DNA of 64,000 nt from a candidate division FCPU426 bacterium (GTDB lineage: Bacteria; Oederibacteriota; Muellerivitia; Muellerivitales; Muellerivitaceae). Every line of letters starts with the position of its first letter. Position 1 is the stretch's first letter. The position numbers are program-made. Of this stretch, positions 1-6,000 are shown one piece after another. The stretch spans positions 1 through 64,000 of the forward strand of contig CAWKAR010000045.1 of the NCBI GenBank assembly GCA_963847625.1, in the 5' to 3' direction.

Positions 1-3000
1 ATTATCATTCCTTGACTCATCGTATTGCTATGCCCCGCAAATCTTTAAGGGAAGCATAAGGATTCGCGGGACTATACCAACTTCATTGTAATTTTCAGAA
101 GAGGAGAGTCGGCATGCGCCGATCATCCATAAAGAAATATTGAGATCGGTACTATACCGGCAACATTAAATGCTACAAGGAGAGTCGGCATGTGCCGATC
201 CTCTATAAAAATATATTGAGATGGGCATTATACCGGCAACATTAAATGCTTCAAGGAGAGTCGGCATGCGGTCGCAAATCATACAAATCGGCAATTCGAA
301 AGGCATACGGATTCCACGGCCCCTCTTGGAGCAGTGCCAGCTGGAGGATGAAGTCGAGTTGGAGGCCCAGCCCGGCCAACTCGTGGTGAGGCCGGTCGGC
401 GGACTCCGCCAGGGGTGGGCCGCGGCTTTTGAGAAGATGGCCCAATACGGCGACGACGGGTTGCTGGATGAGGGCGGTCCCGCGACCGAATGGTCCCGTA
501 AGGACTGGAAATGGTAATCTCGCGTTTCGAGGTTCATTTGGTCCGGTTGGACCCCGCCGAGGGAAGCGAAATCAAAAAGACCAGGCCTTGCCTGGTCATC
601 TCCCCCGACGATATGAACCAATATATCCGGACAGTGATCGTAGCCCCCATGACGAGCAAGGGGAGGGATTACCCGACCCGCGTCCCGGTCGAATTCCAGG
701 GTAAACAGGGCCAGATCGTCCTGGACCAGATCCGAACCGTGGATAAGACCCGTCTCGTTAAAAAACTGGGTAAGATCGGTGACGCGACCTCGGAAAAGGT
801 ATTGAGGCTCCTCGGGGAAATGTTCGGGCCCTAAGGAACAAAGTTGATGCTTTTCCAGGGTGTTCATTGGCCCCTTTTTCCTTCCATTATTCGGGCTGAA
901 AATACGGTTTAGGAAACCTTTTTCCTAATTTCTGCCTTTTTTTATGGCACTTTTTTAAACCCCCCTTTTAAAATTATCCCAATTGGCCGCCTAACCATAT
1001 GGTCGAAAAGGGCTTCAAATTGAGGTCACAATTTGTGATTTCAAGATGGGGTTAAAGAGACTTCTTTAAGGTCACAAATTGTGACCTTAAAAGATAGCCC
1101 GATACCCCAGTAGAAAGGGCCGGTAGACCCAGTAGACAAAGCCGGTGCCCCAGTAGACAAGGCCGGTAGACCCAGTAGACAAGGCCAGTACCCCGGTAGA
1201 AAGGGCCGGTAGACCCGGTAGACAAGGCCGGTACCCCAGTAGACAAGGCCAGTACCCCGGTAGAAAGGGCCGGTAGACCCGGTAGACAAGGCCGGTACCC
1301 CAGTAGACAAGGCCGGTAGACCCGGTAGACAAAGCCGGTACCCCAGTAGACAAGGCCGGTAGACCCGGTAGACAAAGCCGGTACCCCAGTAGACAAGGCC
1401 GGTAGACCCAGTAGACAAGGCCAGTACCCCGGTAGAAAGGGCCGGTAGACCCGGTAGACAAGGCCGGTACCCCAGTAGACAAGGCCGGTAGACCCGGTAG
1501 ACAAAGCCGGTACCCCAGTAGAAAAAGGAGGATGCCTTGGCAGATCAAAAGCTTGATACTTTGGCATGGTTGGATAATTTGTCTGATTTGGAAGCCGAAC
1601 TTAAGAAAAACCCCTCTATCAATAGTGCTGATCTTATAAAAACCTTAAATCTCAGCAAATCGATGGTTTATTTCCTTTTAGCCATAAACAGTTGTTTTGA
1701 TCCGGTGGCGATAAAGAAGATTCGCGTGGCGGCAAAGGCTATCCCCATTTATGAACTTACTTTTAACAACGCCCGGGCTATAGGCAAATTGAAAGGTAAA
1801 GTGCCGGATCTGGATCTCCCTGAAGTGGTCCACGAGGTGCTGGATGTGACCATTTCCAAGCGATTGATCACCATTCAAATCGAGAGCCTGGTAGCCCATG
1901 TCATCAGCGGCAAACCGGCCAAGGATTTCAACCCCTCCCAGGCGCCAACCAGCCGCCCTAAAAAAGCCCCCAAGCTTAAACCTGAAAAGACCGAAAAAGC
2001 CCAAACGGCCTTGGACCAGCGGTTGGAGGAGGCCAAGGCCGGGGGTAAACCGCTGACCCTAGGAGAAAAGCTTGGATTGGCGGTTGAGGTATTACGAGGT
2101 GACGCCTCAAGCGGCCAAGAGGATGCTAAAACGGAGGCGGAACCTGATCCTGAAAAGCCCGCCCATACCAAGTCCAAGGGCTCAACGAACAGAATTTTGG
2201 TGTTCCTGGGAGGTTTTTTTGATATCACCCGGAAAGACTTTGAGGCCAGAAACTTGGGGGTGCTTAGCCGCAAAATCCTAATTGGGATTTTCAAAGCGAT
2301 TGGGCACTTAATAAAATGGCTCTTCAAAGTAATTTGGATTGTGATTAAATGGCCATTCAAGGAAGCTTGGTCCGTCGTGGGGAGGCCGGTAAAAAAGGTG
2401 GTTGCCTTGGCTATCCTTGCCGGCATCGTCCTTTATTTCTTCTTTCCCGCCAAATACCAGGCAGTGTATCAATTACTGAGGGAAAAAACCGTTCAAGCCG
2501 CCTATGGCGCCTATCACAGGCTATCCGAAATTCATAATTCATCATCCAAAATTCAAAATTCGGGCTCAATCGCGCCCGTTGAACCTTCCTCAATTCAAAA
2601 TTCATCATTCAAAATTCAAAATTCGGGGGCAACGGGCGCACCAGCGCCCACTGCCCCCGTTGCTTGGGATTTTTCCTTCGAATCCGAAACACAAAGGGAC
2701 AACGAACTATTTCCCATACCTGGTTACTGCATCATCAAGCCCATCCTTCCCCCGGTGGCGGGAATGGACGCGACGATGGCGGATAATCGGCTTGCCCTCC
2801 TACAGGATTCCCACAAGTATTCCGTCTGGTATGGGAATGACAGAGTGACCGTTGAATCAGTCACCGTAAATCCAACGTCCCTATCCTTGGCATTCATGGA
2901 TAAAGGAACGGCGTTGCTTAATTGGGACAACCTGAAGGCCATCCATTGCGACGAGATTCGGGTATACGCGAATAACAAGGAAAAGATTTTATACCAATGC

Positions 3001-6000
3001 GGGCTGGTGTCATCCAACCTTGAAAAGGCCGTCGAGGTCGAATGCCCCTCGCAGGAGAATTTCAACAGCCTGGTTTCGGCCCTACTCTATTGGGCCAAGA
3101 ACATCGCGCCTTCGGGCCTGCCTTACCTTCACCAGGGATTGGTACCCGATGACCTCGGGAAGGTCGGGGCGTTATGGGCCGGAAGCCCGGCGGACAAGGC
3201 GGGTATGGAATTAAGCGACGCGCTTTGGGGGGTGGACCGGGACGGCGTCCGCCAACAAAAACCCCTCGATGTGGTGCGCCGGTTGGACGCGCTCAAGCCT
3301 GGTAGGCATGGGATTTACGTGATCCGGGACGCGAAGGTGTCACCTAAAACGCCACGGATGAGGCTGGAAATAAACATACCATAAAAAGAAATTTTGAATT
3401 TTAAATTGACGGCTTAAGCGAACCATTCTTAGCCACGGATTCAGGGGATTCATTTAGATGGCCGAAGGAAAAAGGCTTTAAATATTGGTGACTATACCTT
3501 TATGACACGTCAAGAATTTTATTTACCGCCGATAACGGCCGATTAACGCCGATAACAGCTTACAGCTTAAGGCTTTCCCAACTTATCGGCGTTCATGCCA
3601 CTTCACTATTGAAAGGATTTCAATTGAAAGTGGTATTGTCCCGCAATCCATTAACTTTTTTATGGAGATGCGGGACATCGGATTTGATCGGCGGTTCCAT
3701 GACTTTTTGCTTTTACTTGTTGTAAAGGGATACTTAAATTTTAAAGGTGACTACCTTCACGACACGTAAAGAAATTTTTTACCGCAGATAACGGCCGATT
3801 AACGCCGATAAAGGCTTAAAGTTTAAGGCTTTCTCAAACTTATCGGCGTCCATGCCACTTCACTATTGAAAGGATTTCTAATGAAAGTGGTATTGTCCCG
3901 CAATCCATTAACTCCTTTATGGAGATGCGGGACATCGGATTTGATCGGCGGTTACATGTCTTTTTGCTTTTGCTTGTTGAAAAGGGATACTTACCTTAAA
4001 TATTTATGTTTATAAATCCCATGAATCCCATGCATGCCAGCCTTCAATAATTCTTTTAATGAGGCTGGTATCGTACCGATTTCTTTAACTGTCTTAATGT
4101 GAATCGGCACATCCGTGGCTAAGTTTTATTTTGGACAGGTGTGAAGATTTATATGGAAAAATGGCGCGGAAATCTTTGGGGTCGAAACCTCTGTTGGCCG
4201 CTTTTTAATAGTTTTTCAGAGGTTTCAGTATTTATTACTGGTTCCATTTGCGCCTCAGTGAGCATTACACATACAGGGATCCCCTTGCGCTCACGAGCGC
4301 ATGAATCGGGTGGGCCGCTTGGTTTAAGCTTTCATGAAGGGGCGGGGGTTTTAATAAACAGCAAAAGCAAAAGCGGTTGTCCCCAAACGCCCCGGGGAAG
4401 ACTTGAACTGTTAGTGCCTTAAAACAGCCAAAAGCGGCCGGAATGAAAACCCAAAGGAAATACCGGTTTTTGTGGTTTTAATCCGGGTTGGGTACTAAGT
4501 TAGAGGGAGTTTATTACGGGAAAAGGAAGGCGAAAATGTTTTTAATTATTTTCACTATCCAAAAACAAAAAGTCTGTATAAACACTGATAATATTACCGA
4601 TATTTGTTTCATTCCTAATAAAGGCGCAATTATTTACACGAATGGAAATCAAGAACCAATTGCAATTTCAGAGGAAGAAGCATCTAAAATATTAAATAAA
4701 ATCGGGGCTTTGGGTATTCACGAACCGGATCGTAAATATTAAATAAACCCCCCCCCATCACTGGGTAGTAAACGATGCCAAGGACGGAAGGGATTTATAG
4801 TTGATTCATCCCCGGGGGAATTAAAAGTTGAATATGCGGACATGGAGGCTGGCCTATGCCTGGGACAGGGTTGACTCATCGCTTTTGTCCGACTCGGCGG
4901 TTTTTTTGGGTTATTTGGCTGCTGCTTCTGTATCCCCCCGCGGCCGGAGCCGCGTCCATCACCGATGGTGATCATCAGAAAAATCCGGAAGTTTTCTATA
5001 AAGGGGAATACCCCGTATTAGGGCTGACCTTTGGGGATATCCCCCCCTTCCTCAACCTAGTGGGAGGGTATTATTGGAAAGATTATGGTTTCAAGCTGAA
5101 CGGATTCTCGGCCGGGGGATTGGAAAGCATACAACTCGATCTGTCGAAAAAATTAACCGACACGAAAAATTTCTCCGCCAATTTATCCCTGGTGGGCGGT
5201 TATATCAATTTAGGCGGTGCCATCAGCACGATTGTTTCCCTCGGAACGGTGTCCCGGGGTTTGGGGTTTTGTTATGGAGGCGCCGGCATGGATATCAATT
5301 GGGGCGGTTTCGCGGTGGAGTTGGATACCGTTGCGATAACCGATCAAATAGTCCCTGCCTTCCAGATTGGTTACATACAAAGATTCAATTAAGGGTACCT
5401 CTATAAATTGCTGTTCCCCTTCTCCCTAGAGGGGAGAAGGATGGGATGAGGGTGGAAATAGCGAGGTTTTTTACCCCTCACCCTACCCTCTCCCTCAAGG
5501 GGCGAGGGCTTAAATGAATTTTTAGAGGTTCCCTTAAGAAAAAGGCAACCACCGGGTAAACCCGCTCAACCGCTTAAACCGGTGTCAAAAAAACGCCATC
5601 TTTGTTGGAATAAAGCCCACCCAAGAACCACTATATAGCAGGAGAAGATGGAAAGCGGATGATTCCCTGATTAAGGGGCTCCATTCATTGGCATGGTTGA
5701 TGCATTTATTAAGGAATAGATGTCCGCTTGAAGCGGTCTTACCGCCTGGGGTTGAAAGGGGCCAGGCGACCGCACAACGCCTTTGGACGCCGGAAAGCGA
5801 GGGGAGTCATGGATGAGAATTGCGAGAAAATCAAAAAGATGCTGGACCTTTACCGGGAGGGAAAATTGACGGATTCGGAAAAGGCCGATGTGGAATACCA
5901 CTTGCTCTATTGCCCGGAGTGCATATTCCTTTTGACCATAGTGCCGTCATTAAACTAGGACCTTTGAACAACCGGTAAAACAATTGATAAATCCCTGCCC

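What a model noticed while it worked through the whole genome (the two positions that open the first line are those of the whole stretch)
1090..3384. Membrane-anchored ParB-fold proteins, each behind its own 43-bp tandem array
Eight paralogous genes (g02918 here; also g00051, g00047, g00346, g02219, g02376, g02430, g02984) encode a protein with an N-terminal helical domain that folds like the DNA-binding domain of ParB/Noc/SopB, one transmembrane helix and a periplasmic beta+PDZ domain, and six of them are preceded, right up to the ribosome-binding site, by 3-20 tandem copies of a 21/22-bp (42-44-bp double unit) repeat whose sequence differs for every paralogue. I read each pair as a private centromere-like array (like the 12 x 43-bp sopC of plasmid F or the direct repeats of parC) and its cognate binding protein, which would pin that stretch of chromosome to the inner membrane and couple it to a periplasmic signa [...]
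Evidence so far: Paralogue family by BLAST/HMM; arrays by TRF and by eye: g02918 CAGTAGACAAGGCCGGTA x ~19 ending 8 nt before AAGGAGG-N6-TTG; g00051 GTTTCTGGTAAAC x14; g02430 AACCCAGTTCA x>=6 (contig end); g02984 AACCTAGTAGCAG; g02376 TAAGCCGGGAACA; g02219 GATAAACTGCCCACA x13. AlphaFold model with 32-row alignment: pLDDT 82, N-domain and C-domain >90, TM helix 187-219; N-domain alone pLDDT 86; Foldseek PDB top hits nearly all ParB/Noc/Spo0J/SopB/VirB DNA-binding domains, prob 1.0, TM 0.54-0.58 (0.73 on Noc DBD 6y93), though E only 0.1-0.3; C-domain hits PDZ of HtrA/DegS, Pfam PDZ_6 E 0.003-0.008. No Pfam family over cut-off; not in PADLOC. Profile search: 210 cluster representatives in 1.84 billion proteins; [...]
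(Added by a program. Inside this text positions count along the whole contig: contig position 1 is position 1 of the stretch shown here. "Call 12" and the like, gene names such as g00115 and contig names such as C1 are that model's own, and its searches are not shown. The text may have been shortened before it was handed on; [...] marks where a part breaks off. The agent that wrote the report below was given it as the finding of a first reader that could run no searches.)

Follow-up and report, generated by a model that had tools for sequence, protein, structure and literature searches.

The report
Membrane ParB paralogues with matched arrays
An uncultured bacterial lineage carries several membrane-anchored offshoots of the chromosome-segregation protein ParB that have lost its CTP-driven sliding clamp; each sits behind a row of evenly spaced DNA repeats whose sequence varies with its DNA-reading helix, and similar rows lie at dozens of other chromosomal sites, which suggests an undescribed way of pinning DNA to the membrane.

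Summary
Real, and larger than reported. Twenty 11-bp direct repeats, 21/22 bp apart (1106-1524), abut the RBS of a 615-aa gene: ParB-type HTH domain, transmembrane helix, PH-like and PDZ domains. Longer relatives keep Pfam ParB_N, so ParB ancestry holds by sequence too. The CTPase-less clade has an upstream array at 53 of 54 non-redundant loci (the 54th has one beyond an insertion). The CTPase-bearing clade has none in 23. Spacings follow the helical repeat (93% vs 32%). Repeat sequence covaries with residues equivalent to ParB's parS contacts (Arg41 with 'AC', 12 of 12), but linkage is not excluded and binding is untested. The arrays are not private: about 45 array loci exist in this genome, many stacked mosaics, 33 matching a resident paralogue; four other genomes also have distant arrays matching resident paralogues. 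Positions are mostly not conserved between congeners, and there is no ParA or integrase nearby. Best reading: self-repressing promoter-array-gene cassettes whose product tethers phased arrays to the membrane, many sites replacing CTP-driven spreading. Not a parABS centromere. Not found in the library searched or in earlier scan notes on other DNA.

The parts
937..974 (+). Conserved AT-rich leader ending in TAAAAT, candidate promoter of the cassette
   Evidence: The pattern occurs 8 times in the genome, each time upstream of and co-oriented with an array, 7 within 34-172 nt and 1 at 986 nt. The simple sigma-70 scan does not call it; promoter role is inferred.
1024..1090 (.). Two copies of a GGTCACAA-W-TTGTGA(CC) palindrome between leader and array; possible operator of another regulator
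   Evidence: 4 matches genome-wide: two here, one upstream of the C34 cassette, one on C21. Not followed further.
1106..1524 (+). Array of 20 direct 11-bp sites CCC[AG]GTAGA[CA]A, 21/22 bp apart (two helical turns; 43-bp double unit)
   Evidence: TRF; site list and shuffle control
1525..1531 (+). Ribosome-binding site AAGGAGG, directly after the last site, 5 nt before TTG
   Evidence: Sequence
1537..3384 (+). Gene for the 615-aa membrane-anchored ParB-derived protein without CTPase domain
1555..1929 (+). ParB-type DNA-binding domain (residues about 7-131): HTH helices 30-37 and 41-51, second contact helix 76-83
   Evidence: Model pLDDT 86; ParB DBD-parS 6s6h top match, Z 7.7, rmsd 3.4, 98 residues; alignment to the genome's own ParB through bridging homologues
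2389..2445 (+). Predicted transmembrane helix (residues 285-303), preceded by a long Lys/Trp-rich amphipathic stretch (about 241-280)
   Evidence: Hydropathy 2.18; 46 of 49 short-class proteins have such a segment. Hydropathy only; topology inferred.
2764..3114 (+). PH-like beta-sandwich domain (residues about 410-526), probably outside the cytoplasm; three fairly conserved Cys
   Evidence: Z 8.2, rmsd 2.9, 102 residues to the PfAPH PH domain; Cys 471, 488, 503 in 16/23, 14/24, 24/24 rows
3121..3381 (+). PDZ domain of the HtrA/CtpB type (residues about 529-615)
   Evidence: Z 10.6, rmsd 2.2, 79 residues to 1y8t; Foldseek E 5e-5 to MucD

Best explanation
Each short-class gene is a one-gene cassette: promoter, phased operator array, RBS, gene. 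The product is a ParB descendant that lost the N-terminal CTPase clamp and carries a membrane helix in place of the ParB dimerisation domain. Its HTH domain reads an 11-bp direct site; sites two (or 3, 4, 5) helical turns apart let a row of membrane-embedded copies bind one face of the DNA. Many fixed sites would thus replace the CTP-driven spreading by which ParB and Noc load many copies from one site. Binding pins the locus to the inner membrane and blocks transcription through the leader, giving negative feedback on the gene. Substitutions in the recognition helix, matched by changes in the repeat, give several largely orthogonal pairs in one cell. The other arrays, often stacks of blocks for different paralogues, are extra docking sites in trans that spread and turn over by recombination. 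Shown here: anatomy, ParB ancestry, array-versus-CTPase dichotomy, phasing, covariation, distant arrays that match resident paralogues. Inferred: direct binding (about 0.85), autorepression (about 0.6), periplasmic topology (about 0.7), a useful tethering role of the distant arrays (about 0.4).
For: Array at 53 of 54 non-redundant short-class loci, the 54th beyond an insertion; none at 23 of 23 CTPase-bearing loci or at 16 further loci picked by the C-terminal domain. 93% of repeat distances in phase with 10.6 bp against 32% expected, with separate periods 33, 52 and 53 also in phase. Columns equivalent to the parS-contacting residues of ParB (PMC7383237; mapped) covary more with the repeat than other columns: mean z 4.6 vs 2.6, p 0.007; thinned set 3.9 vs 2.0, p 0.001. 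Arg41 goes with 'AC' in 12 of 12, Asp/Glu/Asn41 with 'CA' in 13 of 18; sister pair L037/L045 changes Lys41 to Asn and the site AAAC to AAAA. 33 of 45 array loci of this genome have 3 or more phased sites for a resident paralogue, and only 1 of 32 distant linkers of the focal type equals a linker of its own array; in 7 distant blocks 103 of 112 consecutive units keep the core while linkers vary. 8 of 9 distant arrays found in four other genomes carry the site of a resident paralogue; G002, which has only the long class, gave no hit with 5 patterns. Sigma-70-like sites lie in the 160 nt before the array at 18 of 45 loci, 3.5 expected, 2 on the other strand.
Against: No binding or expression data. 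Array and HTH-coding DNA are adjacent, so co-inheritance can mimic a code: helix 1 windows correlate as well as the recognition helix, the rest of the domain correlates at r 0.31 against 0.23 for the helix, the contact-column test within residues 6-60 gives p 0.12 and 0.052, the top column (Ile34) is not a named ParB contact, and only 4 independent pairs were available (2 same way, 0 opposite, p 0.5). Motif registers were set by eye. Leave-one-out prediction from residue 41 is modest: 33 of 53, against 26 and 24 for controls. CTPase loss and array gain map to one branch, so they are one event. The short class is in only 9 of 99 genomes of the phylum; array positions are mostly not shared between two congeners; insertions split several arrays; 12 of 45 loci match no resident paralogue and the 19-bp type is out of phase.
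Confidence: 0.5

Rival explanations
1. Signal-responsive transmembrane transcription regulators (ToxR/CadC-like logic): the PH-PDZ part senses the envelope and the distant arrays are operators of a regulon, stacked blocks giving combinatorial control.
For: HTH-TM-PDZ layout; PDZ of the HtrA/DegS type; 26 of 35 distant arrays point into a co-oriented gene (the 7 cassette loci subtracted); three arrays in two genomes precede DUF7948 beta-propeller genes.
Against: Downstream genes are unrelated (RecQ, Tgt, GH44, GT9, restriction subunit, NYN and others); several arrays face gene ends; positions differ between congeners; DUF7948 has about 20 copies here; paralogues without PH-PDZ keep full arrays.
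Confidence: 0.2
2. A selfish mobile cassette: the protein binds only to limit its own expression or to anchor an excised or transferred copy; distant arrays are relics of cassettes that lost their gene, shuffled by recombination.
For: Patchy, multi-copy family; neighbours differ at the metagenome loci scanned (76 of 120 ORFs from 18 loci); the same slot holds different paralogues in G000 and G001 while the orthologue sits elsewhere; gene-less arrays share leader and post-array sequence with cassettes; each congener has arrays whose matching gene was found only in the other; tRNA-Asn 3' copies beside two arrays.
Against: No integrase, transposase or ParA among the 76 neighbours scanned; no match in plasmid, phage or IMG/VR collections; no gene remnants at distant arrays; cores kept and linkers varied in distant arrays suggests continued selection.
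Confidence: 0.2
3. The repeats are neutral minisatellites or RNA-level leader repeats, and the covariation is only linkage.
For: Signal spreads over residues 6-50; phylogenetically independent test not significant; arrays lie in the transcribed leader.
Against: B-DNA phasing across different repeat sequences; covarying columns 76-80 outside the HTH; core-versus-linker contrast; no Rfam match in window 1-12000.
Confidence: 0.06
4. Private centromeres of integrated or secondary replicons (sopC-like partition).
For: ParB ancestry; 43-bp double unit like sopC, whose four-turn spacing is described in PMC3177203.
Against: No CTPase domain, no nearby ParA, direct rather than inverted sites, same sites at many loci, canonical parAB present.
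Confidence: 0.04

Closest known systems
ParB/SopB with sopC (plasmid F)
   Same: ParB-type HTH domain; tandem units of 43 bp that put bound proteins on one face of the helix (PMC3177203, passages).
   Different: sopC units hold a 16-bp inverted repeat and work with SopA; here two direct 11-bp sites per 43 bp, no CTPase domain, no ParA, a membrane helix, many paralogues, array upstream of the gene.
Noc and NBS (Bacillus subtilis nucleoid occlusion)
   Same: ParB paralogue with changed specificity that recruits dispersed chromosomal sites to the membrane (PMC8429893 abstract; PMC7383237 passages); top Foldseek match, E 0.11.
   Different: Noc uses CTP-dependent spreading, an amphipathic helix and 16-bp sites, one gene per genome; here an integral helix with outer domains, no CTPase, arrays of direct repeats, up to about 10 short-class paralogues.
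Transmembrane transcription regulators (ToxR, CadC, TcpP)
   Same: Cytoplasmic DNA-binding domain, membrane helix, outer domain (PMC10269533, passages).
   Different: Their winged-helix domains (recalled) are not ParB-type; ParB and PDZ do not occur in the main text of that survey; no consistent target genes here.
RocS (Streptococcus) and pSK1 Par
   Same: Single proteins proposed to tether DNA to the membrane; Par binds repeats on its plasmid (PMC11500499, passages).
   Different: Winged HTH, coiled coil and amphipathic helix, not ParB-derived; no paralogous series with different repeats is described in the passages seen.
Orphan ParB-CTPase fusion proteins (KorB, VirB, BisD and the fusions of PMC12704722)
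   Same: The long class is such an orphan fusion: ParB_N + HTH + extra domains without ParA.
   Different: [quoted passage not shown]

Membership tests
ParB superfamily (ancestry) | HTH DNA-binding domain homologous to ParB/Spo0J | tested here: met
   Top structural matches 6s6h (Z 7.7) and 1vz0 (Z 7.4), weak alone; homologues carry ParB_N and align with the genome's ParB
ParABS partition system | N-terminal CTPase (ParB_N) domain | tested here: not met
   The ORF starts at the HTH domain behind its RBS, and no Pfam ParB_N hit; present only in the long class
ParABS partition system | Cognate ParA encoded next to ParB | tested here: not met
   7 AAA_31 matches in the genome, none within 19 kb of a paralogue; none among 76 neighbours in other loci
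ParABS partition system | Inverted-repeat parS/sopC site of about 16 bp | tested here: not met
   Sites are direct 11-bp repeats; a few types in the genome are near-palindromic by eye
ParABS partition system | Stabilises a replicon | not testable with these tools
   Needs a plasmid stability assay
Noc | NCBIfam TIGR04285 over cut-off; N-terminal amphipathic helix and CTPase | tested here: not met
   No hit for 4 short-class proteins; 35-57 bits against a cut-off of 315 for 4 long-class proteins
Transmembrane transcription regulator (functional class) | DNA-binding domain plus transmembrane segment in one chain | tested here: met
   (fold prediction and hydropathy)
Transmembrane transcription regulator (functional class) | Regulates target genes in response to a signal | not testable with these tools
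   No RNA holder listed; neighbours of arrays show no common function
Integrative or transposable element | Recombinase or transposase in the unit, att sites or terminal repeats | tested here: inconclusive
   None among 76 neighbours; one serine recombinase and two tRNA 3' copies next to distant arrays; empty-site comparisons were not clean
Anti-phage defence system | PADLOC model match | tested here: not met
   0 families for 6 of 7 proteins; one weak MTase_II hit over the ParB_N part of P0038

The most novel reading that the evidence does not exclude
A multi-channel chromosome-to-membrane addressing system: several orthogonal ParB-derived receptors, each with its own DNA code, read mosaic arrays at about 45 sites and so lay out the nucleoid along the inner membrane, with outer PH-PDZ domains linking the anchor points to the envelope; new channels arise by paired change of recognition helix and repeat, and stacked arrays record the paralogues that the lineage has carried.
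Probability: 0.25. Interest if true: 0.92.

Novelty: new variant of a known kind. Interest (0 to 1): 0.76.

Why it matters
It gives more than 50 natural protein-site pairs on one ParB scaffold, a ready test set for how HTH specificity diversifies, so far dissected mainly for the ParB/Noc pair. It suggests a testable principle: when the CTP-driven clamp is lost, phased site arrays replace spreading. If tethering holds, it is a sequence-coded chromosome-membrane attachment system, an old open question in bacterial cell biology. The pairs could also serve as orthogonal DNA labels like ParB-parS.

Tried and rejected
Replication-polarised sites (KOPS/Ter-like): array orientation is mixed along large G001 contigs; GC skew in G000 was uninformative (29 of 45). 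tRNA-linked islands: 1 of 45 arrays within 3 kb of a tRNA/tmRNA gene, against 56 of 809 gaps. Gene remnants at distant arrays: none. Phage or plasmid origin: no match. Genome-contig scan found no relative, a sensitivity limit, since genome search found them. PDB by sequence profile: only a designed repeat protein at E 2.5. ESM Atlas: no usable hit for the PH-like part. RNA runs: no RNA holder listed. Independent-pairs test: too few pairs. Rfam: none in 1-12000. No complex prediction was run. Literature searches without a description of this family: 0 papers; 1, unrelated by title; 5 listed; 2 opened, neither describes it. The pSK1 Par paper was not held. Supplements of the other papers and of the bioRxiv preprint were not seen; supplementary tables of the two surveys could list members under accession numbers.
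Full report
OBSERVATION. The window has a 615-aa ORF at 1537-3384 behind a 43-bp tandem array at 1106-1522 (9.7 copies, score 590). 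The array is 20 copies of CCC[AG]GTAGA[CA]A, alternately 22 and 21 bp apart; its recurrence score is 220 against at most 4 in 500 shuffles, and the last copy abuts AAGGAGG, 5 nt before TTG. tblastn finds 8 paralogous loci in the genome; 7 have the N-terminal domain and all 7 have an array of a different repeat. Three of these arrays are split, or cut off from the gene, by ORFs that look like transposases (judged by eye, not scanned).

THE PROTEIN. A model of residues 1-136 from a 27-row alignment has pLDDT 86. Its best matches are ParB-parS (6s6h, Z 7.7, rmsd 3.4, 98 residues) and Spo0J, and Noc, ParB and SopB by Foldseek at E 0.1-0.4. These scores are weak, but sequence settles the ancestry: of 153 representatives found I scanned 53 (including P0006); 19 hit Pfam ParB_N, 11 over the cut-off. 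Bridged by these, the domain aligns with the genome's own ParB. There are two classes: long (ParB_N, HTH, membrane helix, outer domains) and short (starting at the HTH). They are the two sides of one branch (SH-aLRT 99; 40 short and 23 long rows). Hydropathy puts a membrane helix at 285-303; 46 of 49 short-class proteins have one, with more Lys/Arg before it than after in 29, equal in 10, fewer in 7. The C-terminal model (pLDDT 85) has a PH-like domain (Z 8.2) and an HtrA/CtpB-type PDZ (Z 10.6). Periplasmic location is inferred. Some paralogues stop just after the helix, and one such form is shared by two species. No Pfam, NCBIfam or PADLOC family covers the focal protein.

ARRAYS GO WITH LOSS OF THE CTPASE. 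From genome and metagenome loci I took 107 HTH hits. Of 80 short-class hits, 2 were dropped (too little upstream DNA; broken frame) and 78 reduced to 54 below 85% identity. 53 have 4 to 47 phased repeats within 800 nt (shuffles 0-4; two loci with 4 had only 122-152 nt available and no shuffles); the 54th is the C13 gene whose array lies beyond an insertion. In 23 non-redundant long-class loci the recurrence score at 21/22/42/43 bp is 0-3, against 8-221 in 51 of 53 short-class loci; the other two have 52- and 53-bp periods. Sixteen more loci chosen by the C-terminal domain, 14 with a ParB_N-like start by eye, scored 0-2. This is one evolutionary event, but it fits known biology: ParB and Noc use CTP to load many copies from one site (PMC8429893 abstract; PMC12704722 introduction), and a protein without the clamp needs many sites. 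Repeat distances are 93% in phase with 10.6 bp against 32% expected (multiples of one period inflate this, but periods 33, 52 and 53 are independent cases). sopC uses the same four-turn spacing (PMC3177203 passages). Sigma-70-like sites lie in the 160 nt before the array at 18 of 45 loci (3.5 expected; 2 on the other strand), and in this genome a leader ending in TAAAAT occurs 8 times, always upstream of an array. The array therefore probably lies between promoter and RBS.

REPEAT AND HELIX COVARY. Motif similarity correlates with recognition-helix identity after controlling for the rest of the domain (partial r 0.23, p 0.0005), but also with the rest (0.31); all top windows lie in the first 50 residues and the median window is 0. 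With 11-bp cores registered by eye, the top columns are 34, 30, 41, 76, 43, 44, 46. ParB contacts parS through Q162, G170-R173, N178, T179, G201 and R204 (PMC7383237 passages), which map to 30, 38-41, 46, 47, 77 and 80. These nine columns score above the rest (p 0.007 for 52 rows; 0.001 for 42 rows under 65% identity), but within residues 6-60 alone p is 0.12 and 0.052 (L030 and L014 left out for unsure register, L045 shifted by one base). Arg41 goes with AC at core positions 9-10 in 12 of 12, Lys41 in 7 of 12, Asp/Glu/Asn41 with CA in 13 of 18. Residue 41 predicts these two bases in 33 of 53 leave-one-out trials, the nearest relative in 26, the majority class in 24. Independent pairs were too few (4). 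So a code is likely but linkage is not excluded by these tests alone.

THE ARRAYS ARE NOT PRIVATE. A periodicity scan gave 70 non-coding regions; I removed 13 unrelated ones by eye and merged 57 into 45 loci (one, C57:39641, is doubtful). Many are stacks of co-oriented blocks, for example 15 + 6 + 8 + 6 sites of four types at C27:278581. 33 of 45 have 3 or more phased sites for a resident paralogue at up to one mismatch (patterns overlap somewhat); the focal site occurs at C24, C25 and C27 and marginally at two more loci, and 1 of 32 of these linkers equals one in its own array. In 7 contiguous distant blocks 103 of 112 units keep the core while linkers are mostly distinct. Three patterns over five genomes found 9 distant arrays in four of them, 8 carrying the site of a resident paralogue; G002, with only the long class, had none. 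These nine have no gene remnant. This match in trans is the best argument against linkage alone, though old copying of cassette arrays could contribute.

CONTEXT. Arrays are co-oriented with the upstream gene at 32 of 43 loci and the downstream gene at 33 of 42, or 26 of 35 without the cassettes, but are not polarised along large contigs of G001. Downstream genes share no function. Of 19 G001 loci compared, two sit clearly in the same slot as a G000 array but with other content, one of them a different paralogue, two lie 2-4 kb from one, and the orthologue of the C33 gene lies elsewhere (part of that output was cut). Neighbours at 18 metagenome loci are all different, with no ParA, integrase or transposase among 76 of 120 ORFs scanned. 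The family is in 20 of 99 genomes of the phylum, the short class in 9, all of one family, with no match among plasmids, phages or IMG/VR. The genome has a separate canonical parAB.

READING. Most likely these are self-repressing cassettes for membrane-anchored, site-specific ParB descendants that coat phased arrays and hold them at the membrane, with fast turnover of genes and sites (0.5). Whether the distant arrays serve the cell as anchors, act as operators (0.2) or are relics of a selfish cassette (0.2) is open. It works like Noc or sopC in geometry and like a transmembrane regulator in layout, but fails the defining tests of ParABS and Noc. Ten library searches, term searches in the ParB-CTPase survey and its 6 held supplements and in the transmembrane-regulator survey showed no description of this family; most subscription papers are not in the library. 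Earlier scan notes had nothing on it. Papers seen: PMC7383237, PMC3177203, PMC10269533, PMC11500499 and bioRxiv 2024.03.22.586370 as passages; PMC12704722 as abstract, start of the introduction, one section, passages and supplement search; PMC8429893 as abstract and outline.

Noticed in passing
window 266-834 and 102-270: mazE-mazF (PemK) toxin-antitoxin pair just upstream of the cassette, preceded by a 76-bp unit repeated 2.2 times that copies its RBS/start region.
   Followed up: partly
window 1024-1090; G000 C34:110031; C21:19580: A GGTCACAA-W-TTGTGA palindrome occurs 4 times in the genome, 3 of them upstream of paralogue cassettes.
   Followed up: partly
window 3495-3993: 257-bp near-duplication (91% matches) directly downstream of the gene, with no long ORF.
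   Followed up: no
G000 C27:279843 and C57:9276: Copies of the 3' end of the tRNA gene at C4:10278 lie just downstream of two compound arrays, one next to a serine recombinase: att-like remnants.
   Followed up: partly
G000 C34:109402-109980; L125:7531-7817; L130:6740-7153: An ORF6N-domain gene lies upstream of the C34 cassette and beside two array loci in G001.
   Followed up: partly
L129:61-2963 (G001:C2): CRISPR-like array (about 72-bp period) 1.5 kb upstream of a paralogue cassette.
   Followed up: no
L014/L095 (G001) and G000 C13:119773-120147: A 52-bp repeat type has its gene in G001 but was found only as gene-less arrays in G000; it seems inverted relative to the other block types.
   Followed up: partly
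G000 C24:42903, C27:181921, C13:123322, C25:55340: 19-bp-period and CTTACCG-type arrays join the stacks but are out of helical phase and match no resident paralogue.
   Followed up: partly
G023, G072, G019: The long, CTPase-bearing membrane class is itself multi-copy (19 C-terminal-domain matches in G023, both classes and fragments together) and has no arrays; its loading site is unknown.
   Followed up: partly
window 61657-64000: Nested Thr-rich coding repeats (periods 24-252 bp, and 210 bp x 5.9 at the window end).
   Followed up: no
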